A stretch of DNA of 40,940 nucleotides from Escherichia phage K30. Below the pieces are notes generated by a model that saw nothing but the letters and a program-made list of their open reading frames with translations, was not told the DNA's origin and did no database searches. Of the stretch, positions 1 to 40,940 are shown piece by piece (the first letter of the stretch is position 1; every line of letters begins with the position of its first letter). The translations under genes and the position numbers were made by a program. Location: sequence record NC_015719.1; one strand, given 5' to 3'.

Positions 1-193
1 TCTCACAGTTTACACTTTTGGTTATCCCCCGGTACCCTCTAAGTTAGCCCAAAGTAACCATAGGCCACCCTAAACCTTCGGTTTAACCTTAGGTTGGACT
101 GTTGGGAACCTTGGGTGATACTATATGTAGTGGTTAGTGTGACCTTGGGATACTATATGTTGATCTCTCTGTATCCCTATCTGTTGGTACTCT

Positions 194-224
194 CTAAGTA
201 TCCACTAAGTATCCACTAAGTAAC
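194..224. repeat. Tandem 11-bp repeat CTAAGTATCCA (about 2.7 copies)
   Basis: Read directly: ctaagtatcca ctaagtatcca ctaagtaac; position is analogous to the short repeats next to the T7 left terminal repeat. Confidence 0.7.
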
Positions 225-334
225 AACCTGAGGTTAGACCTGAGGACATCCATCGACACTATACCTAAGGTTAACTATGCGTCTAACGTTTAGTTACTAT
301 AAGGCTATTGGTGACCATTGTCCATACACCAATC

Positions 335-357
335 AATTAGGTCACACTATAGGGAGA
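335..357 (+). promoter_or_regulatory. Phage RNAP promoter (phiOL-like), aattaggtcacactatagggaga
   Basis: Matches the 23-bp consensus shared by the other 12 promoters; +1 G at about 352. Confidence 0.8.
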
Positions 358-459
358 CACTTAAAGTATTACTAAGAGACCTTTACCATAAAACTACTAT
401 CACTATAGGTCTAACTATAAGACTAACTATAGGTCTAACTAAAAGTTTAACTTTAGGTG

Positions 460-16036: not shown

Positions 16037-16339
16037 ATGGCTATTACCAAACGTTTTAAAGTTACTTTCGAAGTGACCACCGTAATTGACAGCGAAGCTG
16101 AGAAGAACCTAAGCGAGTCCGTTCTGCGTATTGCACATATGGTTTCCAAAGGTGAGAAGGTGGACAGCTTCAAGCTGGGTTTCCTTGAGGCAGCACTCAA
16201 TGGTGGACCTGACGAAGCAGCTACGTACTGTATCCGACATGGTCTACGTTCATTGGTCAAAGAGGCCTATAACGACCTTTCGTTTAACGAGAAGAAACTT
16301 ATGCGATTCTCCCCGGCAACCGTGAGGGTAACCAAGTGA
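16037..16339 (+). CDS. 5.5: Gene 5.5 protein (H-NS-binding in T7)
   Basis: 100 aa; recalled similarity to T7 gp5.5 (TKRFKV.F.VT.VIDS, RFSPATVR). Confidence 0.8.
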   Translation: MAITKRFKVTFEVTTVIDSEAEKNLSESVLRIAHMVSKGEKVDSFKLGFLEAALNGGPDEAATYCIRHGLRSLVKEAYNDLSFNEKKLMRFSPATVRVTK

Positions 16340-16545
16340 GTGAGTACCTCAAAGTTCTGGCGGCCCTCAAGGGCTGCCCTAAGTCCTTCCAGTCGAACTA
16401 CGTGCGGAACAACGCTACGTTAGTCGCGGAGGCCGCTTCCCGTGGTCACATTTCGTGTCTGACCATGAGTGGTCGTAATGGCGGCGCTTGGGAAATTACC
16501 AGTGCCGGAGTGAGATTCCTTAAGAAACACGGGGGTTGTTTATGA
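16336..16545 (+). CDS. 5.7: Gene 5.7 protein
   Basis: 69 aa; GTG start overlapping the 5.5 stop; recalled near-identity with T7 gp5.7 (CPK.FQSNYVRNNA.LVAEAASRGHISCLT.SGRNGGAWEIT). Confidence 0.8.
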   Translation: MSEYLKVLAALKGCPKSFQSNYVRNNATLVAEAASRGHISCLTMSGRNGGAWEITSAGVRFLKKHGGCL

Positions 16546-17697: not shown

Positions 17698-17746
17698 AAA
17701 CTCATGGGCACAATTAGGACCCACTATAGGGAAGTGCCCATTATGA
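17698..17746 (+). promoter_or_regulatory. RNase III-type hairpin enclosing a phage promoter (R6.5/phi6.5-like)
   Basis: 8-bp stem atgggcac (17704-17711) / gtgcccat (17734-17741) brackets the promoter core; flanks aaactca...ttatga are those of the hairpin family. Confidence 0.55.
17712..17734 (+). promoter_or_regulatory. Phage RNAP promoter (phi6.5-like), aattaggacccactatagggaag
   Basis: Consensus match. Confidence 0.8.
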
Positions 17747-18252: not shown

Positions 18253-18513
18253 ATGGGACTGTTCAAGAAGATTAAGAAGGCCGTCAAGAAGGTAATCAAG
18301 GCACCACTCAAAGCTGTTGGTCTGGCAGCAGATGCACCAAACGTACAGACAGCCGCTGAGACACCCGTGGCAGTACCTCAGGAGCCACCGAAAGAGGTCG
18401 TGGAGGATGTTGAGTCTTCAGCAGACACTGAGTCTGGTAAGAAGAAAACTCGTGCGTCCGGTAAGAAATCCCTCTCGGTTTCCCGAAGCTCGGGCGGTGG
18501 GATTAACCTGTAA
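18253..18513 (+). CDS. 7.3: Gene 7.3 virion protein
   Basis: 86 aa; recalled similarity to T7 gp7.3 (KKAVKKV, C-terminal GKKSLSV.RSSGGGIN). Confidence 0.8.
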   Translation: MGLFKKIKKAVKKVIKAPLKAVGLAADAPNVQTAAETPVAVPQEPPKEVVEDVESSADTESGKKKTRASGKKSLSVSRSSGGGINL

Positions 18514-18524
18514 GGAGGTGACCT

Positions 18525-20132
18525 GTGGCAGAAGTTAAACTCGAAGGCTTCGCAGAGGAGGGAGCCAAGGCGGTGTATGACCGTCTGAAGAACGACCGAC
18601 AACCCTACGAGACACGAGCAGAGTCCTGTGCGCAGTACACGATTCCCTCACTGTTCCCTAAGGACTCCGATAACGCATCAACCGATTATACGACTCCGTG
18701 GCAATCCGTAGGTGCACGTGGCCTGAACAACCTAGCGTCCAAGCTGATGCTGGCACTGTTCCCGATGCAGTCATGGATGAAGTTGACCATTAGTGAATAC
18801 GAAGCTAAGAACCTTCTGGGTGACGCTGAGGGTCTAGCTAAGGTCGATGAAGGTCTCTCGATGGTAGAGCGAATCATCATGAACTACATCGAGTCCAACA
18901 GTTACCGAGTGACTCTCTTTGAGTGCTTGAAGCAACTGTGTGTGGCAGGGAACGCGCTGCTGTACTTACCGGAGCCTGAGGGTTATACCCCGATGAAGCT
19001 CTATCGCCTGAACTCATATGTGGTCCAGCGAGATGCTTTCGGTAACGTACTACAGATTGTCACTCTCGACAAGATTGCGTTCAACGCTCTACCTGAGGAT
19101 GTCCGCAGCCAAGTTGAAGCAGCCCAAGGTGAGCAGAAGGAAGACGCTGAGATTGATGTCTACACCCACGTTTACCTTAACGAAGCCGGAGATGGTTACT
19201 CGAAGTACGAAGAGGTTGCCGAAGAGGTGGTGCCGGGCAGTGAAGCTGAGTATCCGCTCGAAGAGTGTCCGTACATTCCGGTCCGCATGGTCCGTATAGA
19301 TGGTGAATCTTACGGTCGTTCCTACGTGGAAGAGTATCTGGGCGACCTTAAGTCCCTAGAGAACCTCCAAGAGTCTATCGTTAAGATGGCCATGATTACC
19401 GCTAAGGTTATCGGTCTGGTAGACCCGGCAGGTATCACTCAGGTTCGCCGACTCACGGCAGCACAGTCTGGTGCGTTCGTACCGGGCCGTAAGCAGGACA
19501 TTGAGTTTCTCCAGCTGGAGAAGTCTGGTGACTTTACCGTAGCGAAGAACGTAAGCGACACCATTGAGGCTCGCCTCTCGTATGCCTTTATGCTCAACAG
19601 TGCGGTACAACGTACAGGTGAGCGAGTCACAGCTGAAGAGATTCGGTATGTGGCGTCAGAGCTGGAAGATACCCTTGGTGGTGTATACTCGATTCTCTCA
19701 CAGGAACTCCAGCTGCCTCTGGTAAGAGTGCTCTTGAAGCAACTACAAGCCACGCAGCAAATCCCGGAGTTACCTAAAGAGGCCGTCGAGCCAACTATCA
19801 GCACTGGCCTTGAGGCTATCGGACGTGGTCAGGACCTTGACAAGCTGGAGCGGTGCATTGCCGCATGGTCAGCTCTTAAGGCCCTCGAAGGTGATGATGA
19901 CCTCAACTTGGCTAACCTCAAGTTACGCATCGCTAACGCTATCGGACTTGACACGGCTGGTATGCTACTTACTCAGGAAGAGAAGAACGCCCTTATGGCA
20001 CAACAAGGCGCTCAGATTGCTACACAGCAAGGGGCCGCAGCGTTGGGTCAAGGGATGGCTGCACAGGCTACTGCAAGTCCTGAAGCGATGGCAGCGGCTG
20101 CTGACTCGGTAGGTATGCAACCGGGCATGTAA
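18525..20132 (+). CDS. 8: Portal (head-tail connector) protein (T7 gene 8)
   Basis: 535 aa; recalled extensive identity with T7 gp8; GTG start with AAGGAGGTGA RBS. Confidence 0.97.
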   Translation: MAEVKLEGFAEEGAKAVYDRLKNDRQPYETRAESCAQYTIPSLFPKDSDNASTDYTTPWQSVGARGLNNLASKLMLALFPMQSWMKLTISEYEAKNLLGDAEGLAKVDEGLSMVERIIMNYIESNSYRVTLFECLKQLCVAGNALLYLPEPEGYTPMKLYRLNSYVVQRDAFGNVLQIVTLDKIAFNALPEDVRSQVEAAQGEQKEDAEIDVYTHVYLNEAGDGYSKYEEVAEEVVPGSEAEYPLEECPYIPVRMVRIDGESYGRSYVEEYLGDLKSLENLQESIVKMAMITAKVIGLVDPAGITQVRRLTAAQSGAFVPGRKQDIEFLQLEKSGDFTVAKNVSDTIEARLSYAFMLNSAVQRTGERVTAEEIRYVASELEDTLGGVYSILSQELQLPLVRVLLKQLQATQQIPELPKEAVEPTISTGLEAIGRGQDLDKLERCIAAWSALKALEGDDDLNLANLKLRIANAIGLDTAGMLLTQEEKNALMAQQGAQIATQQGAAALGQGMAAQATASPEAMAAAADSVGMQPGM

Positions 20133-20153
20133 TTAGGGCACACTATAGGGAGA
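20131..20153 (+). promoter_or_regulatory. Phage RNAP promoter (phi9-like), aattagggcacactatagggaga, with 5' leader hairpin
   Basis: Consensus match; transcript begins gggagacc-gctt-ggtttccc (8-bp stem). Confidence 0.85.
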
Positions 20154-21332: not shown

Positions 21333-22367
21333 ATGGCTAACATGCAAGGTGGACAGCAGCTCGGTACTAACCAAGGTAAAGGTCAATCCGCAGCAGACAA
21401 GCTGGCGCTATTCCTGAAAGTATTTGGCGGTGAAGTACTGACCGCATTCGCTCGTACCTCTGTGACCGCCAACCGTCACATGCAGCGTCAAATCAGCTCC
21501 GGTAAGTCCGCACAGTTCCCTGTGATTGGTCGCACCAAGGCTGCTTACCTGCAACCGGGCGAGTCTCTGGATGACAAACGTAAAGACATCAAGCACACAG
21601 AGAAGACCATTAACATTGACGGACTGCTGACTGCTGACGTGCTGATCTACGACATCGAAGACGCGATGAACCACTACGACGTGCGCTCCGAGTACACCTC
21701 TCAGATTGGTGAGTCTCTGGCGATGGCGGCTGATGGTGCGGTTCTGGCAGAACTAGCTGGTCTGATTAACTTGGCGGATGGCGTCAACGAGAACATCGCT
21801 GGTCTGGGCAAACCGTCCCTGCTGGAAGTTGGCGCTAAGGCTGACCTTACCGACCCTGTCAAACTGGGCCAAGCGGTTATCGCACAGCTGACCATTGCTC
21901 GTGCAGCTCTGACCAAGAACTACGTCCCGGCTAACGACCGTACGTTCTACACCACTCCAGACGTGTACTCTGCGATTCTGGCGGCTCTGATGCCTAACGC
22001 TGCGAACTATGCGGCTCTGATTGACCCTGAGCGTGGTTCTATCCGTAACGTGATGGGCTTCGAGGTTGTGGAAGTTCCGCACCTGACTGCTGGTGGTGCT
22101 GGCGATGACCGCCCGGAAGAAGGCACAGATGCGTCCAACCAGAAGCACGCCTTCCCGGCAACTGGTGGTAAGGTTAACAAAGAGAACGTTGTGGGCCTGT
22201 TCCAGCACCGTTCCGCTGTCGGCACCGTTAAGTTGAAAGATCTGGCTCTGGAGCGTGCTCGCCGTGCTGAGTATCAGGCTGACCAGATTATTGCTAAGTA
22301 CGCGATGGGTCACGGCGGTCTGCGTCCAGAATCTGCTGGTGCACTGGTTTTCAAAGCGGGGGCTTAA
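21333..22367 (+). CDS. 10: Major capsid protein 10A (T7 gene 10)
   Basis: 344 aa; recalled extensive identity with T7 gp10A (GGQQ.GTNQGKG, KLALFLKVFGGEVLTAFARTSVT, ADQIIAKYAMGHGGLRPE). Confidence 0.98.
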   Translation: MANMQGGQQLGTNQGKGQSAADKLALFLKVFGGEVLTAFARTSVTANRHMQRQISSGKSAQFPVIGRTKAAYLQPGESLDDKRKDIKHTEKTINIDGLLTADVLIYDIEDAMNHYDVRSEYTSQIGESLAMAADGAVLAELAGLINLADGVNENIAGLGKPSLLEVGAKADLTDPVKLGQAVIAQLTIARAALTKNYVPANDRTFYTTPDVYSAILAALMPNAANYAALIDPERGSIRNVMGFEVVEVPHLTAGGAGDDRPEEGTDASNQKHAFPATGGKVNKENVVGLFQHRSAVGTVKLKDLALERARRAEYQADQIIAKYAMGHGGLRPESAGALVFKAGA

Positions 22368-32858: not shown

Positions 32859-32879
32859 TTAGGACACACTATAGGGAGA
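32857..32879 (+). promoter_or_regulatory. Phage RNAP promoter (phi17-like), aattaggacacactatagggaga, with 5' leader hairpin
   Basis: Consensus match; transcript begins gggagacc-gatt-ggtttccc. Confidence 0.85.
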
Positions 32880-32919: not shown

Positions 32920-35631
32920 ATGGACCAAGACATTAAAACAGTCATTCAGTACCCAGTAGGGGCCACTGAGTTCGACATCCCGTTCGACTACCTGTCCCGC
33001 AAGTTTGTCCGTGTGTCGCTGGTGACAGGCGACAACCGAAGACTGCTGAGTAACATCACTGAGTACCGCTACGTGTCTAAGACCAGAGTGAAGCTCCTTG
33101 TGGAGACCGCTGGGTTCGACCGTGTGGAAATCCGTAGGTTCACCTCGGCATCTGAGCGAATCGTTGACTTCAGTGATGGCTCGGTTCTCCGTGCGGCTGA
33201 CCTTAACGTGTCTCAGATACAGTCGGCACATATCGCAGAGGAAGCACGTGATGCGGCACTTATGGCAATGCCTCAGGATGATGTCGGTAACCTTGATGCA
33301 CGTAACCGTAGAATCGTGCGGCTGGCACCGGGCATTGATAGTACAGATGCAATCAATAAGAACCAACTGGACACCACCTTAGGTGAGGCTGGTGGTATTC
33401 TGTCACAAGTCAAGGATACCCAGAAGGACATTCAGAACTACATTCAGAAGTTCGGCGATGACACCGCTATGGTTCGTGGAGTAAATTGGGTGTATAACGG
33501 TGGGTCTGCCATTGGTGGAGAGACCTCCTTTATCATCGACAAGTCAGCGCCAGTGTTCGCCGTACCATACATTGAGGTAAACGGAAGCCGTCAGTTCCGA
33601 GACTGGCAGTACGAGTATGACCCTGCAACCAAGCGTGTCACTCTGGTTAAACCTCTGGAGGCTGGAGACTTTGTTGTATGCCTCACTACCGAGAATAAGT
33701 TACCTTTAGAAGACCTGCTGGCTAGTACAGGAGGTGCCGATTCCATTGGTAAGGCTGGAGGTGGTACAGTTCAGGATGGTCTGGATGCAACGATACATGG
33801 TACTGATGTCCACCGAGACACTGTGACTCCCGGTAAACTGGACACACTCCTTGTGTACAATGGGACCAACGCTGGGCGCGACCTACGTGGCCATGAGTTC
33901 GTAATGCCCCACGGCACATTCTCCGCGACTCGCATCTTGAGAACTCGTGGTATCTCAGCGGCTGAATCTAAGTACACTGGGTTCACTTGGCGCGGACAGG
34001 GTAGTTCGTTCACCAAGTTGGTCCACCCTGCGACTGGTGGTCAGGGTGATATTGCATTCATGGACTACCTGAAGGATGTTACGATGTCTGGGTTCATGAT
34101 GGACAACACCGCGCTAGGTCAGGGGACTTCCAATCAGGATACCCGTAACGGTCAGTTCTGGATTCGACATTCGGTTGACTCCTACTTCGACGACCTGCGC
34201 TTCGCTGGTGCTGACGCCCTTACGTTCTGTCTGGACCACTGTAAGAACATCTACTCGACAAACCTCAAGGTAGACTATCAGCTGCGCTATCCGACTGGTA
34301 CAGGTAAGTCCCCGCTAATAGTTGGTGACTACTCGGAGCAGTGCATGTTCATCGGCGGCTACGTTAAGACCGTGTCACCTGACGGAACCATAAAGTATGC
34401 TGGTGACCTCGCAGATAACGACCAAGCGGATGATACCAAATGGGCGTTCATTAACCTGTACGGATTGACGTTTGAACAGAAGCCTAACTCTAACGCCTGT
34501 ATGTGGCAAGAAGGGGAGGGTGCACCATCCAACGCTCACTTCATCGGTATGAACTACATCAACAACGGTGTAGGTCATGGTGTGTCTGAGAAAGCTGTGG
34601 GTACTGACATCGGGTCTACCTTCCGTCAGGCTCAGGTTCGTGCTGTGTGGAACCGTGCTGAGTACATCTCAATCGGCAGTCACTTCATTAACAACGATGC
34701 CAAGTATCCTGCTGGCACTGGTGGCGCAGGTACTGCGGCTGCTGGTGGTGTTCATAATGACAACGCCAAGTTCACCTCTCTGGTTGGTGACTACTTCCGT
34801 GGTAACTTCGCGGATTATACAGACTACACAGGGGCATCTGGTGTTAACCCGGAGAACTCAACCCACATCACCAACGCAAAGTTGACATCCATCATTCGTA
34901 CATCGTCCTCCAGTACCTCTCAGCATTTAGCCATTGTGAACTGCCAGTTAACTTCTGCGGGTCGTATTAGCGGCGGCGGTAACGGGAGACTCCACGTGTC
35001 CGTTGTGGCATCTCACTGCGTCGGGCCTCTGGGGCAGTTTGGTCACGGACAGTCCGAGACGTACCTTGACGTCATAAACTCTACGTTCACTGCCGCTGGT
35101 AGCACTGAGGCTATGATTACCCAGTCAGGTGTTGGTAATATCTCGTTCGCTAACTCCACGTTCCGTGATTATATCCGTGTGGTAGATGGCTCGCATACCC
35201 GTGTTACCTTCCGTAACTGTACGTTCTACACTTGTACTTTCACTGAGGACGACCGAAAAGCTCGCTACGTTAACTGCCGATTTATCTCGTGCACTGACGC
35301 TCCAGACTCCTTCGGCCTCAACTTTGCGGCAGACTCTCTGGACCGCCCTAGCTCACTTCGAGTTAACGTAACGTTAACTGCTGGCGGCAGCTATACGTTC
35401 CCGGCTTGGGTACTTCAGGGTCGTGGTGCTTACTTCATCAACGTGGGTGGTAATGGTGCCAACCTTCCTGCCTGCGCTGGTATCATTGGTAAGAGTAGCG
35501 CGACTGGTAGTGGTGTATGGACCCCTCAGTGGGAAAGCACTCCTAGTAGTATTGTTGTATCTTGGCCATCCAACGGATACATTACTGTTACGGCCACAAC
35601 TGCTGGCAACTACACAATCGGCGTCCACTAA
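32920..35631 (+). CDS. 17: Tail fibre / tailspike with T7 gp17-like N-terminal anchor and beta-helix (depolymerase-like) C-terminal region
   Basis: N-terminal 150 aa resemble T7 gp17 ([48 protein letters not shown]); C-terminus has repetitive N.TF / NCTFYTCTF segments typical of parallel beta-helix enzymes; start at ATG 32920 with AAGGAGGT RBS. Confidence 0.9.
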
Positions 35632-35644
35632 TAAGGAGAACCAC

Positions 35645-37198
35645 ATGTTAGACAAATTGAATCAGCCGAAAGGCTCAACCATTGGTGTGCTCAAGGATGG
35701 GCGCACCACCCAAGAGGCCATTGACGAACTCACTAATGATGTAACAGGAAGTATCACAACTACCCGGTATGCATCGAGTGCTTCCCAGGCGCTGTTCCCG
35801 AAGCTCATTGACAAGATGACTGCGTATCGGCATGGTGTCTCTGGATTCCAAGACAAGTTTCGAATCTACGGGTATGGCTCCTCTGTAGGCAATGGGGCAA
35901 CGATTGGTGGAAACTCCTCGCCAAATACCCCAGTAGCAAAATTCTTTGAGCACTTCCAGAGGACGGTCAACAAGGCTGGAATCTACCCATTCGAATACTC
36001 GAACAAGTCGGTGGATGGTTCCAACATCAACGATTTCCTCAACCGGGAGTGGCCTGCGACTGTCGCCACTGGTGTCTTCCCGGACCTAGCGGTTTTCGCT
36101 TACGGTATGAATGACTTCCCCTCGGCGCAGTATAATGCTGGGATGACCTTCGGGGCCAACGGTTTCAAACAGAGACTTCGCAATGCAATACAGAAGGTTC
36201 GAGACGCTGGCGGAGATGTAGTTCTCCTGACCACCCCACACCCAAACATTGAGGAATACTCGTGGGAACTCCCGTCAAGTATAGACATGGTGTGGCCCCA
36301 GTTTGCTGCCAAACCCGTGGCTGGTGACGTTCTTATTCCACCAGTGTCACAATCAAATGTGTCCTTCGACTTCATGGGCAAACGCATCACTCAGGGTGTT
36401 CGCTTCCTGAGAGGTAACGATGCGATGCGTGAGGTTGCTGTGGAGATGGGTTGCGTCTTGATTGACGTTGAGAAATACTGGTTCGAGGCCGTTGGTAAGT
36501 ATGGGAACGTACTACTGTTCGACCGCGTGCCAGCAATGCAGACAGTGCACCCTAACCTACTGGGTCACCAGCAGTCGTACTGGCGGGCAATCGAAGAGTT
36601 CTTCAACAATGTGGATTCCTCTGGATGGATTGCTCCAGACGCTAAGTTGAACCAGACGCTGGATGTTGGCGGTAACGCCCTGAACCCCGCGAAGATGGAA
36701 GCTGATGTCGACCTTCAGGCCAACGGCATCCGTCAGCGTGCATTCGTGCGCCGGGATAAGTCTGGCCGTGTCATGGAGGAGCTGACGCAGGACAGCAGGG
36801 TCAAGCGCACATCCTACACGGTGTCAGACCCTACAGTATCAGCTCCGGGATATAGCCTAACATGGGACGAGTGGTTTACCCGCACCAAGGGATTATTCAC
36901 CAGTGGGGAGACTTTGGGCATCCCTGTAAATAACCGCACCGAAGGTCGACTATTAGTCACAGCGTGGATTTCAGGCCAGACTGGCTGGACCCAGCTTGAG
37001 GACTACTTAGTCTCTAACCGTGAGGGTGTTGTATTGGTCTCCAAGATTGGCTCTTTAGATAATACTCCACCGGCTGGTGGTACAGGGACCAACGGTCAGC
37101 GCCTGTTCACCGTGTCCACCTCTGCGAACAATGTCGTGGTTAATATCCTATCGGATAACGCCACTGTGAAGTTCAAACTGGACACCTTTGGGGCATAA
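35645..37198 (+). CDS. Second receptor-binding protein candidate with SGNH/GDSL-hydrolase-like motifs (putative esterase tailspike)
   Basis: 517 aa from ATG 35645 with TAAGGAGAA RBS; motifs YGYGSS, YGMNDF, VHPNLLGH in the order expected for an SGNH fold; sits between gene 17 and the holin. Confidence 0.6.
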   Translation: MLDKLNQPKGSTIGVLKDGRTTQEAIDELTNDVTGSITTTRYASSASQALFPKLIDKMTAYRHGVSGFQDKFRIYGYGSSVGNGATIGGNSSPNTPVAKFFEHFQRTVNKAGIYPFEYSNKSVDGSNINDFLNREWPATVATGVFPDLAVFAYGMNDFPSAQYNAGMTFGANGFKQRLRNAIQKVRDAGGDVVLLTTPHPNIEEYSWELPSSIDMVWPQFAAKPVAGDVLIPPVSQSNVSFDFMGKRITQGVRFLRGNDAMREVAVEMGCVLIDVEKYWFEAVGKYGNVLLFDRVPAMQTVHPNLLGHQQSYWRAIEEFFNNVDSSGWIAPDAKLNQTLDVGGNALNPAKMEADVDLQANGIRQRAFVRRDKSGRVMEELTQDSRVKRTSYTVSDPTVSAPGYSLTWDEWFTRTKGLFTSGETLGIPVNNRTEGRLLVTAWISGQTGWTQLEDYLVSNREGVVLVSKIGSLDNTPPAGGTGTNGQRLFTVSTSANNVVVNILSDNATVKFKLDTFGA

Positions 37199-37768: not shown

Positions 37769-38215
37769 ATGCTGGGGTTCACAAAGAGAATCGTCCCGTA
37801 TCTTGTGGCTATCATGGTGTTTGCCTTCGGGTGGCACTTGGGTTCGCAATCTACGGACGCTAAATGGAAGGAGGTAGTACAGAATGAGTACGTTTCGAAG
37901 CAAACAGCTAGAGTTCAAACTCAAGCAGCACTTGATGAGATATCGGCTAAGTACCAAGCAGACCTTGAGGGGCTGGAGGGCAGCACTGATAGGATTATTG
38001 CTGATTTGCGTAGCGACAATAAGCGGCTGCGCGTTAGAGTCAAACCTACCAGTGTCGCCGCAGGACCAGACGGTCGATGCCTCGTTGATGGTTCCGTCGA
38101 ACTACACGAAGCAACTGCTCGAAGTCTTATCGCAATAACCCAGAAGGCCGACCTCAAAGAGAAGGCCCTACAGGACACTATTCGTAAGCTACAGCGGAAA
38201 GGAGGTGAACATTGA
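37769..38215 (+). CDS. 18.5: Rz-like i-spanin (T7 gene 18.5)
   Basis: 148 aa; N-terminal TM segment; recalled similarity to T7 gp18.5 ([43 protein letters not shown]). Confidence 0.9.
37884..38138 (+). CDS. 18.7: Rz1-like o-spanin lipoprotein, embedded in gene 18.5 (T7 gene 18.7)
   Basis: 84 aa in the +1 frame inside 18.5; lipobox ...[11 protein letters not shown]; recalled similarity to T7 gp18.7. Confidence 0.8.
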   Translation: MSTFRSKQLEFKLKQHLMRYRLSTKQTLRGWRAALIGLLLICVATISGCALESNLPVSPQDQTVDASLMVPSNYTKQLLEVLSQ

Positions 38216-39969
38216 GTAACTCTCAGCAAGCCAAGAACGCCTTAATCATTGCACAACTGAAGGGTGACTTTGTCGCCTTTCTCTTCGTGCTCTGGAAGGC
38301 CCTGAATCTGCCGGAACCAACCAAGTGTCAAATCGACATGGCTAAATGTCTGGCAGACCCAAAGAACAAGAAGTTTATCCTTCAGGCTTTCCGTGGTATC
38401 GGGAAGTCGTTCATCACGTGTGCGTTCGTTGTGTGGACCCTGTGGCGTGACCCTCAGTTAAAGATACTGATTGTCTCAGCCTCAAAGGAACGTGCGGACG
38501 CTAACTCCATCTTCATTAAGAACATCATCGACTTGTTGCCTTTCCTGAGTGAGCTTAAACCTCGCCCCGGTCAGCGTGACTCCGTGATTAGTTTTGATGT
38601 AGGCCCTGCCAAGCCAGACCACAGCCCGTCAGTTAAGTCTGTAGGTATTACGGGTCAGCTTACTGGTAGCCGTGCCGATATCATCATTGCAGATGACGTG
38701 GAGATTCCCGGTAACTCTGCAACTCAAGGTTCTCGTGAGAAACTCTGGACGTTGGTTCAGGAGTTCGCCGCGCTGTTGAAACCTCTACCGACTAGCCGTG
38801 TTATCTATCTGGGTACCCCTCAGACCGAGATGACGCTCTACAAGGAACTTGAGGACAACCGTGGTTACTCTACAATTATCTGGCCAGCACAGTATCCTCG
38901 CTCCAAAGAGGAAGACCTGTACTATGGCGACCGACTGGCTCCTATGCTCCGTAGCGAGTACGATGAGGACAAAGAGGGTCTCGCCAGTCAGCCAACAGAC
39001 CCGGTGCGGTTCGACTCTATGGACCTTCAGGAGCGTGAGGTGGAGTACGGCAAGGCTGGCTATACGCTTCAGTTCATGCTCAACCCAAACCTCAGTGACG
39101 CCGAGAAGTACCCTCTACGCCTCCGTGACGCTATCGTGTGCAGTCTACAGGTAGACAAGGCCCCAATGCACTACCAGTGGTTACCTAACCGTCAGAACCG
39201 CAATGAGGAGCTTCCTAACGTGGGTATGAAGGGTGACGAGATTTACTCCTTCCATACGGCCTCAAGTAACACTGGTGCGTATCAAGGTAAGATTCTGGTC
39301 ATTGACCCAAGCGGTCGTGGTAAGGATGAGACTGGCTGGTGCGTATTGTATACCCTCAACGGTTACATCTACTTGATGGACGCTGGTGGTACTCGTGGTT
39401 ACGAGGAGAAGTCCCTTGAGTTCCTCGCCAAGAAGGCCAAACAGTGGCAGGTTCAGACTGTGGTCTTCGAGAGTAACTTCGGTGACGGTATGTTCGGTAA
39501 TGTGTTCCAGCCTGTTCTCCTGAAGCATCACCCAGCGCAACTCGAAGAGATTCGTGCTCGTGGTATGAAAGAGGTCCGCATCTGCGATACCCTTGAGCCT
39601 GTACTGGCAAGTCACCGCTTGGTCATCCGTGATGAGGTAATCCGACAGGACTACCAGACGGCACGTGATGCAGACGGTAAGCACGCTCTGAAGTACAGCC
39701 TGTTCTACCAGATGACCCGTATGAGCCGTGAGAAGGGAGCTGTGGCACATGATGACCGACTTGATGCATTAGCATTGGGTGTTGAGTTCCTACGCTCTAC
39801 GATGCAGCAGGACGCTGTGAAGATAGAGGCTGAGGTACTTCAGGAGTTCTTGGAGCACCACATGGAGAAACCTCTGAGTAATATCTCACAGTTCAGAACC
39901 ACCAGCAGTAACGGTGTGGACATCCGGTGGGAAGACGATGGGGATGACTCTATGTTCATCGCATGGTAA
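38212..39969 (+). CDS. 19: Terminase large subunit (T7 gene 19)
   Basis: 585 aa; recalled extensive identity to T7 gp19 ([70 protein letters not shown]); TTG start with AAAGGAGGTGA RBS. Confidence 0.97.
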
Positions 39970-40540: not shown

Positions 40541-40940
40541 GTGTATATCTCACAGTTTACACTTTTGGTTATCCCCCGGTACCCTCTAAGTTAGCCCAAA
40601 GTAACCATAGGCCACCCTAAACCTTCGGTTTAACCTTAGGTTGGACTGTTGGGAACCTTGGGTGATACTATATGTAGTGGTTAGTGTGACCTTGGGATAC
40701 TATATGTTGATCTCTCTGTATCCCTATCTGTTGGTACTCTCTAAGTATCCACTAAGTATCCACTAAGTAACAACCTGAGGTTAGACCTGAGGACATCCAT
40801 CGACACTATACCTAAGGTTAACTATGCGTCTAACGTTTAGTTACTATAAGGCTATTGGTGACCATTGTCCATACACCAATCAATTAGGTCACACTATAGG
40901 GAGACACTTAAAGTATTACTAAGAGACCTTTACCATAAAA
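40541..40940. repeat. Right copy of 400-bp direct repeat (includes a second copy of the phiOL-like promoter at about 40875-40897)
   Basis: Identical to positions 1-400 by direct reading. Confidence 0.8.

What the first reader, a model, noticed from the sequence alone, without database searches (positions are those of the whole stretch)
18525..18527. Essential genes use non-ATG starts (GTG portal, TTG large terminase)
The portal gene begins at GTG after AAGGAGGTGA. The large terminase begins at TTG (38212) after AAAGGAGGTGA, overlapping the Rz stop. Alignment to the recalled T7 N-termini supports these positions. Both cases could be mis-annotated by automatic pipelines and may tune expression levels.
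Basis: partly seen in the sequence, partly recalled or inferred. Interest (0 to 1): 0.3.

Follow-up and report, generated by a model that had tools for sequence, protein, structure and literature searches.

The report
Non-ATG starts of portal and terminase
The portal gene and the large terminase gene of this T7-like phage (Escherichia phage K30) really do start at GTG and TTG, but this is ordinary: public records already annotate both starts, and the main practical point is that some related records get them wrong.

Summary
The window is the complete 40,940-bp genome of Escherichia phage K30, genus Przondovirus. Gene 8 (portal, 18525-20132) can only begin at GTG 18525. Gene 19 (large terminase, 38212-39969) can only begin at TTG 38212. 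In each case an in-frame TGA lies one codon upstream, and the encoded N-termini align with T7 gp8 and gp19 from the first residues.

Each start sits 3 nt after AAGGAGGTGA. This 10-mer occurs only twice in the genome, and these are the two strongest ribosome-binding sites of 47 genes. The TTG overlaps the Rz stop (TTGA).

Relatives settle the positions. At the portal codon they carry either ATG or GTG, sometimes on an otherwise identical junction. All 52 IMG/VR przondovirus contigs carry TTG for terminase, and T7 gene 19 uses GTG.

The mis-annotation worry is real. KP32 and Henu1 truncate the portal by 74 codons. About a quarter of sampled records do not start terminase at the TTG.

The "tuning" idea is untested. 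It is plausible for TTG and doubtful for GTG.

None of this is new. K30's own records, K11 (GenBank EU734173), T7 and a published pK3-24 gene table already carry these starts. Interest is low.

The parts
18253..18513 (+). Gene 7.3 (virion assembly / host-range protein), the gene upstream of the portal. Its TAA stop (18511-18513) lies inside the portal Shine-Dalgarno sequence, 11 nt before the GTG.
   Evidence: ORF list. Pfam PF11653 VirionAssem_T7, 50.7 bits. Aligns with K11 gene 7.3.
18511..18521 (+). Shine-Dalgarno sequence of gene 8, TAAGGAGGTGA. It gives 11 nt of perfect complementarity to the 16S rRNA 3' tail and ends 3 nt before the start. Its last three bases form the in-frame TGA that closes the upstream reading frame.
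   Evidence: Sequence. Duplex energy -17.8 kcal/mol, rank 1 of 47 genes. The 10-mer occurs only twice in the genome.
18525..18527 (+). GTG initiation codon of gene 8 (portal).
   Evidence: First possible start of the ORF. K11 has ATG at the aligned position. Relatives with the same junction have ATG or GTG.
18525..20132 (+). Gene 8, portal (head-to-tail connector), 535 aa.
   Evidence: PF12236, 348 bits. 80% identical to T7 gp8 from residue 1. 534/535 identical to the Kp9 portal sequence in PDB 7Y1C. Exact match to AEH41045.1 / YP_004678752.1 of Escherichia phage K30.
37769..38215 (+). Gene 18.5 (Rz, i-spanin), 148 aa. Its last codons (K-G-G-E-H) are encoded by the gene 19 Shine-Dalgarno sequence and spacer, and its TGA stop overlaps the TTG start as TTGA.
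   Evidence: PF03245, 30.6 bits. Sequence. K11 annotates the same 4-nt overlap of 18.5 and 19.
37884..38138 (+). Gene 18.7 (Rz1, o-spanin), embedded in 18.5.
   Evidence: PF17531 O_Spanin_T7, 94 bits.
38199..38208 (+). Shine-Dalgarno sequence of gene 19, AAGGAGGTGA (10 nt). It ends 3 nt before the start, and its last three bases form the in-frame TGA.
   Evidence: Sequence. -17.7 kcal/mol, rank 2 of 47. The GGAGGTG(A/G)ACATTGA core is invariant in 47 related loci.
38212..38214 (+). TTG initiation codon of gene 19 (large terminase).
   Evidence: First possible start of the ORF. TTG in K11. TTG in 47/47 related IMG/VR loci. 52 IMG/VR contigs carry TTG and none carries A, C or G at the first base. 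TTG listed for the pK3-24 terminase (PMC11533715).
38212..39969 (+). Gene 19, terminase large subunit, 585 aa.
   Evidence: PF22530, 127.6 bits. 79% identical to T7 gp19. Exact match to AEH41060.1 / YP_004678767.1 of phage K30.
16336..16338 (+). It overlaps the gene 5.5 stop as GTGA and has only a weak Shine-Dalgarno sequence.
   Evidence: K11 annotates GTG at the aligned position. Junction sequence ...aaccaaGTGAgtg. SD rank 37 of 47.
17714..17732 (+). phi6.5-type phage promoter, the nearest upstream promoter of genes 6.5-6.7-7.3-8. That it supplies the gene 8 message is inferred.
   Evidence: Match to the K11 promoter consensus with 2 mismatches. K11 annotates phi6.5 in the same place.
32859..32877 (+). 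phi17-type phage promoter, the nearest upstream promoter of genes 17 through 19. That it supplies the gene 19 message is inferred.
   Evidence: Match to the K11 promoter consensus with 1 mismatch, and no other promoter match before 40052. K11 annotates phi17.

Best explanation
GTG 18525 and TTG 38212 are the genuine initiation codons of gene 8 (portal) and gene 19 (large terminase) of Escherichia phage K30.

Inferred mechanism: ordinary Shine-Dalgarno-directed initiation. The 30S subunit is positioned by an unusually long SD (TAAGGAGGTGA or AAGGAGGTGA, 11 or 10 bp with the 16S rRNA 3' tail) that ends 3 nt before the start. Initiator tRNA reads GUG or UUG, so both proteins should begin with Met.

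Both genes lie in polycistronic late transcripts directly behind a translated gene. The gene 7.3 stop lies inside the portal SD, and the Rz stop overlaps the terminase start as UUGA. Terminating ribosomes can therefore also re-initiate there (inferred).

The long SD and this coupling make a weaker start codon workable. UUG probably keeps terminase synthesis low, and terminase is needed in few copies. GUG on the portal gene is probably close to neutral.

Shown here: the positions, the SDs, the overlaps, the conservation and the homology. Inferred: the coupling, any effect on expression level, and the N-terminal Met.
For: No start is possible upstream, because in-frame TGA codons lie at 18519-21 and 38206-08.

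Downstream candidates have poor ribosome-binding sites. Portal ATG75 scores -0.6, terminase GTG26 -1.4 and ATG43 -3.7 kcal/mol, against -17.8 and -17.7 for the proposed starts.

The products are colinear with T7 gp8 and gp19 from the first residues. The Pfam portal model matches from residue 14.

Among przondovirus relatives, codons lying before any in-frame ATG vary almost only at third positions: 5/0/35 for portal and 3/0/21 for terminase. For terminase codons 2-25 alone the split is 2/0/10.

At the portal position, K11-type genomes have ATG (33 of 51 IMG/VR loci) and 18 have GTG. GenBank phages 150031 and 175041 have ATG on the identical taaggaggtgaccc junction, as do 18 records in all.

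Terminase: TTG in 47/47 loci. The same motif is found 52 times with T and 0 times with A, C or G at the first base in IMG/VR. K11 has TTG and T7 has GTG. Of 33 other Studiervirinae loci, 14 have GTG and 19 have ATG.

The exact 535-aa and 585-aa products are the deposited K30 proteins. The portal chain of PDB 7Y1C (phage Kp9), 534/535 identical, is deposited starting MAEVKLEGF.

E. coli reporter data from PMC3592434: UUG gives 6-8 times less expression than AUG or GUG; natural E. coli SDs reach 8 nt, with a single case of 9; a start within -4 to +3 nt of the preceding stop gains about 2-fold through re-initiation.
Against: No N-terminal peptide, ribosome-profiling or toeprint data were found for any przondovirus.

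Portal codon 17 is a GTG preceded by GAGGAGGG (-13.1 kcal/mol, but about 10 nt away). Codons 2-16 show little variation within the genus (1/0/2). A minor secondary start there is therefore not formally excluded.

The tuning idea is weakened for the portal. ATG/GTG polymorphism coexists with three different initiation-region alleles: strong SD with GTG, strong SD with ATG, and weak SD with ATG.

The extended SD is not a specific compensation for the weak codons. Other genera have ggaggtgacct followed by ATG. In T7, non-ATG genes do not have stronger SDs than ATG genes (p = 0.47).

Invariance of the single T of TTG is not statistically strong on its own, because about half of the nearby synonymous sites are also invariant. 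That base is also the third base of the last Rz codon (CAT).
Confidence: 0.9

Rival explanations
1. The real starts are internal codons downstream, as some public records annotate: portal at ATG codon 75 (or GTG codon 17), terminase at GTG codon 26 or ATG codon 43.
For: KP32 (GenBank and RefSeq) and Henu1 annotate the portal from ATG codon 75. KP32_isolate 194 (RefSeq) and KMI2 annotate terminase from GTG codon 26. The RCIP0101 record is rotated so that it begins at ATG codon 43. Portal GTG17 has an SD-like GAGGAGGG upstream.
Against: Apart from portal GTG17, these codons lack an SD, scoring -0.6 to -3.7 kcal/mol. The skipped codons are conserved as protein out to T7 and vary at third positions. 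K11-type genomes place ATG exactly at codon 1. In T7 the portal N-terminal end lies within the wing domain (PMC6702177). Most records, including curated K11 and K30, use codon 1.
Confidence: 0.03
2. The positions are right, but the codon identities have no regulatory meaning. GTG and TTG are near-neutral variants that a very strong SD and translational coupling make tolerable, and they were fixed by drift.
For: The portal start is polymorphic among close relatives: about 113 GTG against 18 ATG on the strong-SD junction, plus about 240 K11-type ATG records. Three different portal initiation-region alleles all exist in viable phages. Gene 19 switches among ATG, GTG and TTG across genera. GUG equalled AUG in an E. 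coli reporter (PMC3592434).
Against: TTG is invariant in 52/52 IMG/VR przondovirus contigs, while the portal codon varies in the same genomes. In the sampled Teseptimavirus and Przondovirus groups gene 19 is usually non-ATG: 61 of 80 loci. UUG costs 6-8 fold in reporters, so it is unlikely to be invisible to selection.
Confidence: 0.4
3. TTG is retained because of the overlapping Rz reading frame. T38212 is the third base of the last Rz codon (CAT, His148), and changing it to A or G would make Gln.
For: Sequence...GAA CAT TGA in the Rz frame. All 47 related loci keep ...ACATTGA.
Against: T7 Rz ends earlier (...RK*) and lacks this tail entirely. The KGGEH tail therefore looks like a by-product of reading through the gene 19 SD, and a terminal His to Gln change is unlikely to matter. 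T7 gene 19 is also non-ATG without any overlap.
Confidence: 0.12
4. The non-ATG codons are sequencing or assembly errors in this record.
For: None found.
Against: The same codons occur in many independent isolates and metagenomic contigs.
Confidence: 0.01

Closest known systems
Bacteriophage T7 gene 19 (large terminase, DNA maturase B), GTG start
   Same: It is the orthologous gene (79% protein identity, colinear N-terminus). It has a non-ATG start preceded by a strong SD (TAAGGAGG).
   Different: T7 uses GTG, not TTG. Its SD is 8 nt rather than 10 nt. T7 has 21 nt between the Rz stop and the start, with no overlap.
Klebsiella phage K11 gene 19 and gene 8 (GenBank EU734173)
   Same: Same genus. 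Gene 19 is annotated from the identical ...aaaggaggtgaacaTTGagtaac junction, overlapping gene 18.5 by 4 nt.
   Different: K11 gene 8 starts with ATG behind a different, 12-nt longer intergenic spacer with a weak SD (ggggaggg; -11.5 against -17.8 kcal/mol).
Published przondovirus gene tables, e.g. pK3-24 (PMC11533715)
   Same: The only TTG start among its 45 ORFs is the terminase large subunit, overlapping the preceding lysis gene by about 4 nt.
   Different: Its portal is ATG (K11-type). The paper tabulates codons without comment.
E. coli infC (IF3) AUU start: expression set by a non-canonical start codon
   Same: It shows that a weak start codon can set the expression level of an essential gene (established knowledge; discussed in PMC3592434).
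   Different: infC is autoregulated through IF3 discrimination against the AUU start. Nothing here indicates feedback, and GUG and UUG are standard alternative starts.

Membership tests
T7-type portal (Pfam PF12236 Head-tail_con; T7 gp8 orthologue) | Profile match above the curated cut-off | tested here: met
   348.4 bits against a cut-off of 27, covering residues 14-478.
T7-type portal (Pfam PF12236 Head-tail_con; T7 gp8 orthologue) | Full-length colinearity with T7 gp8, including the N-terminus | tested here: met
   80% identity, residues 1-535 against 1-536. 534/535 identical to the Kp9 portal sequence in PDB 7Y1C.
T7-type terminase large subunit (gp19, DNA maturase B) | T7 terminase RNase H-like nuclease domain and an N-terminal ATPase domain | tested here: met
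   PF22530 at 127.6 bits and PF03237 at 22.4 bits. The RGIGKS Walker-A region aligns with T7.
T7-type terminase large subunit (gp19, DNA maturase B) | Full-length colinearity with T7 gp19 and with solved homologues | tested here: met
   79% identity, residues 3-585 against 2-586. PDB 8DGC aligns 1-585 against 1-586.
Genus Przondovirus (Studiervirinae); specifically Escherichia phage K30 | High nucleotide identity and synteny with K11/KP32-group genomes | tested here: met
   94-98% identity over two 2.2-kb segments. K11 gene order is recovered across the window. Both proteins are exact matches to K30 proteins on a 40,940-bp contig. The IMG/VR contig of the same length places both genes at the window's coordinates. 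Whole-genome identity was not computed.
Canonical SD-directed initiation at an alternative start codon (GUG/UUG) | GUG or UUG is the first possible start after an in-frame stop, with an SD complementary to the 16S 3' tail at working distance | tested here: met
Canonical SD-directed initiation at an alternative start codon (GUG/UUG) | The protein begins with (f)Met decoded at that codon | not testable with these tools
   This needs N-terminal sequencing or proteomics. The PDB and GenBank sequences begin with M only by annotation convention.
Translationally coupled gene pair (-4 overlap, NTGA) | The stop of the upstream gene overlaps the start of the downstream gene | tested here: met
   TTGA at 38212-38215 for Rz and gene 19. 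GTGA at 16336-16339 for genes 5.5 and 5.7.
Translationally coupled gene pair (-4 overlap, NTGA) | Downstream translation depends on upstream translation | not testable with these tools
   Only reporter data from E. coli are available as an analogy (PMC3592434).

The most novel reading that the evidence does not exclude
The portal and the large terminase are the two halves of the DNA-packaging motor. In this lineage they share an identical and otherwise unique initiation module: AAGGAGGTGA, then 3 nt, then a non-AUG codon. This could be a deliberate device rather than coincidence. An SD longer than any in E. coli might hold ribosomes on a weak start codon and make both genes respond together to changes in initiation-factor (IF3) stringency late in infection. 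T7-group protein kinases are reported to phosphorylate initiation factors; that point is from my own recollection and was not checked here.
Probability: 0.05. Interest if true: 0.45.

Novelty: already known. Interest (0 to 1): 0.12.

Why it matters
Mostly for annotation quality. The two starts are correct in the K30 and K11 records, but some przondovirus records truncate these genes. RefSeq KP32 and Henu1 lose 74 portal residues. KP32_isolate 194 and KMI2 lose 25 terminase residues. Several RCIP records appear to be rotated to begin at an internal terminase ATG; this was verified for RCIP0101 only. These truncated proteins spread into protein databases and affect terminase-based genome re-orientation and phylogenies. 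Biologically, an invariant TTG on terminase beside a polymorphic ATG/GTG on portal is a small natural experiment on start-codon choice. It could be tested in the synthetic Klebsiella phage rebooting systems that now exist (PMC12295037, listed).

Tried and rejected
1. mRNA accessibility. Predicted unpaired probability around the two starts is unremarkable, at ranks 30 and 38 of 47, so no structural switch is suggested.

2. A general rule that non-ATG starts carry stronger SDs. It holds for ranks 1 and 2 in this genome. It fails for gene 5.7 (rank 37) and for T7 (Mann-Whitney p = 0.47). Other genera combine the same extended SD with ATG. Compensation specific to the weak codons is therefore rejected.

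3. A scan of IMG/VR for przondovirus terminase junctions with ATG, GTG or CTG found none.

4. Literature searches for N-terminal or proteomic evidence, and for the Kp9 cryo-EM paper, found nothing usable in the held library. One search failed on term length and one on phrase length.

5. Upstream alternative starts are impossible, because a stop lies one codon before each start.

6. Sequencing error is rejected by recurrence in independent genomes.

Full report
[quoted passage not shown] An exact-sequence look-up shows that the two predicted proteins are AEH41045.1 / YP_004678752.1 and AEH41060.1 / YP_004678767.1 of Escherichia phage K30, on a 40,940-bp contig. An IMG/VR contig of that length carries both genes at the window's coordinates. 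The window is therefore the K30 genome. One paper calls this genome "well curated" and uses it as the representative of the genus (PMC10438801).

**The observation.** All coordinates are correct.
- Portal: the ORF runs 18525-20132 (535 codons) and opens with GTG.
- TAAGGAGGTGA lies at 18511-18521. Its last three bases are an in-frame TGA, so only one codon (CCT) separates that stop from the GTG.
- The stop of gene 7.3 (TAA, 18511-18513) lies inside the same SD.
- Terminase: the ORF runs 38212-39969 (585 codons) and opens with TTG.
- AAGGAGGTGA lies at 38199-38208 and again ends in an in-frame TGA, with one codon (ACA) between.
- The Rz ORF (37769-38215) ends at TGA 38213-38215, so the junction reads TTGA.
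- Pfam confirms portal, T7-type terminase, Rz, Rz1 and gp7.3.

**Are these the real starts?**
- Nothing upstream is possible in either frame.
- Downstream in-frame candidates are portal GTG17 and ATG75, and terminase GTG26 and ATG43. All but GTG17 lack a ribosome-binding site, scoring -0.6 to -3.7 kcal/mol against -17.8 and -17.7 for the proposed starts.
- The products align with T7 gp8 from residue 1 (80% identity) and with T7 gp19 from residue 3 onto 2 (79%).
- Among 51 and 47 przondovirus loci from IMG/VR, variable sites in the codons that precede any in-frame ATG fall 5/0/35 (portal) and 3/0/21 (terminase) at codon positions 1/2/3. That is the signature of translated sequence. Terminase codons 2-25 alone give 2/0/10.
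- The most direct evidence is comparative. K11 and 33 of 51 IMG/VR przondovirus loci have ATG exactly where K30 has GTG. GenBank phages 150031 and 175041 have ATG on the very same taaggaggtgaccc junction that KP32, Henu1 and VLCpiA3d carry with GTG.
- For terminase, K11 has the identical TTG junction, and all 47 related IMG/VR loci have TTG. A pattern scan finds 52 contigs with T and none with A, C or G at the first base.
- The deposited sequence of the Kp9 portal in PDB 7Y1C, 534/535 identical, starts MAEVKLEGF. In T7 the portal N-terminal end lies within the wing domain (PMC6702177).
- No experimental N-terminus for a przondovirus was found.

**Is it more than chance?** The count of non-ATG starts is ordinary.
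- In K30 the well-supported non-ATG genes are 5.7 (GTG 16336), 8 and 19. The doubtful embedded ORFs 19.2 and 19.3 add two more GTGs.
- K11's curated annotation has 47 ATG, 3 GTG and 1 TTG. T7 has 51 ATG and 6 GTG, and gene 19 is one of the six.

The context is what stands out.
- AAGGAGGTGA occurs only twice in the genome, where 0.10 matches are expected, and each copy ends 3 nt before one of these two starts.
- The two genes rank 1 and 2 of 47 for SD/anti-SD pairing energy.
- According to PMC3592434, natural E. coli SDs span 2-8 nt with a single 9-nt case, so 10-11 nt is beyond the host's own range.

**How it probably works.** The mechanism is ordinary SD-directed initiation with initiator tRNA on GUG or UUG. 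It is helped by re-initiation of ribosomes terminating at gene 7.3 (stop inside the SD) or at Rz (UUGA overlap).
- In E. coli reporters, a start within -4 to +3 nt of the preceding stop gains about 2-fold, half of it from re-initiation.
- In the same study UUG gives 6-8 times less expression than AUG or GUG, while GUG equals AUG.
- The inference for terminase is that TTG holds its synthesis down. Terminase is needed catalytically, in few copies. The maximal SD and the coupling keep initiation reliable.
- Non-ATG gene 19 starts recur across the group: TTG in all przondoviruses sampled, GTG in T7, and GTG in 14 of 33 other Studiervirinae loci.
- For the portal, the tuning idea is weak. GenBank holds about 131 records with the strong-SD junction, of which 18 carry ATG, 12 carry the exact K30 60-mer with GTG, and the remainder are consistent with the cccGTG form. 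About 240 records carry the K11-type weak-SD junction with ATG. Three initiation-region alleles coexist in viable phages.
- Other genera carry ggaggtgacct followed by ATG. The K30 form therefore looks like a single A-to-G change on an already strong SD, not an SD that evolved to compensate.
- T7 shows no association between non-ATG starts and SD strength. Predicted mRNA accessibility is unremarkable.
- TTG invariance could partly reflect the overlapping last Rz codon (CAT). However, T7 Rz lacks that tail and T7 gene 19 is still non-ATG.

**Mis-annotation.**
- Portal: among 55 annotated records with the strong-SD junction, 4 have no portal CDS over the start. These are KP32 and Henu1, each in GenBank and RefSeq. 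Both are annotated from ATG codon 75.
- Terminase: in an evenly spaced sample, 11 of 44 annotated records have no terminase CDS over the TTG.
- KP32_isolate 194 (RefSeq) and KMI2 start terminase at GTG codon 26.
- The RCIP0101 record ends so that it begins at ATG codon 43.

**Comparison with what is known, and novelty.** These starts are already annotated for K30 itself and for K11 (EU734173). The T7 GTG start is in the reference annotation. A published table for pK3-24 lists TTG for terminase. The finding is correct but already known. The additions made here are the allele frequencies, the shared unique SD module, the ATG/GTG polymorphism, and a list of mis-annotated records.

**Verdict.** Novelty: already known. 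Interest 0.12.

Noticed in passing
window 16336-16545 (junction 16336-16339): Gene 5.7 is a third non-ATG gene that the finding does not mention. Its GTG start overlaps the gene 5.5 stop as GTGA and has only a weak SD (gagggt; rank 37 of 47). K11 annotates the same GTG. Pfam gives no match for the product.
   Followed up: partly
window 1-393 and 40548-40940: The record carries a 393-bp exact direct terminal repeat that includes a phiOL-like promoter (337-355 and 40884-40902). K11's annotated repeat is 180 bp, and przondovirus repeats are reported as 180-183 bp (PMC10438801). K11's right end aligns only as far as about window 40725. The extra 215 bp or so may be an over-extended end or a genuinely longer repeat.
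   Followed up: partly
window 22346-22352, just before the gene 10A stop at 22365-22367: G GTT TTC sits in the gene 10A frame, like the T7 10A/10B slippery site. A -1 shift there opens a 50-codon extension, a likely minor capsid protein 10B. K11 annotates only 10A.
   Followed up: partly
GenBank/RefSeq records GQ413937 and NC_013647 (KP32), MK203841 and NC_048138 (Henu1), NC_047969 (KP32_isolate 194), MN101216 (KMI2), OR532895 (RCIP0101): These public records truncate the portal by 74 codons or the terminase by 25 codons, or are rotated to begin at the internal terminase ATG (codon 43). In the samples read, about 7% of annotated records miss the portal start and about 25% miss the terminase start.
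   Followed up: yes
L080 (IMGVR_UViG_3300031372_000020), about 370-403: A phage outside the K11/K30 portal group (portal 81% identical, N-terminus MATTERKGF) carries a K11-like weak-SD spacer (ggttatggggagggctaactaaATG). The two intergenic alleles are therefore either old or exchanged by recombination.
   Followed up: no
window 35645-37198: The second receptor-binding (tailspike) gene starts at ATG 35645 behind TAAGGAG. The GTG at 35423 given by the mechanical ORF list is only upstream read-through overlapping gene 17. The gene has no blastn similarity to the K11 ORF in the same position, consistent with a swapped capsule-specific depolymerase.
   Followed up: partly
window 337, 5878, 6525, 7057, 9234, 10903, 17714, 20133, 21153, 25573, 32859, 40052 (plus the repeat copy at 40884): Twelve K11-type phage-RNA-polymerase promoter matches (TTAGGGCACACTATAGGGA, up to 2 mismatches), all on the + strand. 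The phi9 match begins at 20133, immediately after the portal stop codon.
   Followed up: partly
window 38861 and 39395: The embedded ORFs 19.2 and 19.3 inside gene 19 begin with GTG, as annotated in K11 (and 19.2 in T7). They have no SD, and whether they are real genes is unclear.
   Followed up: no
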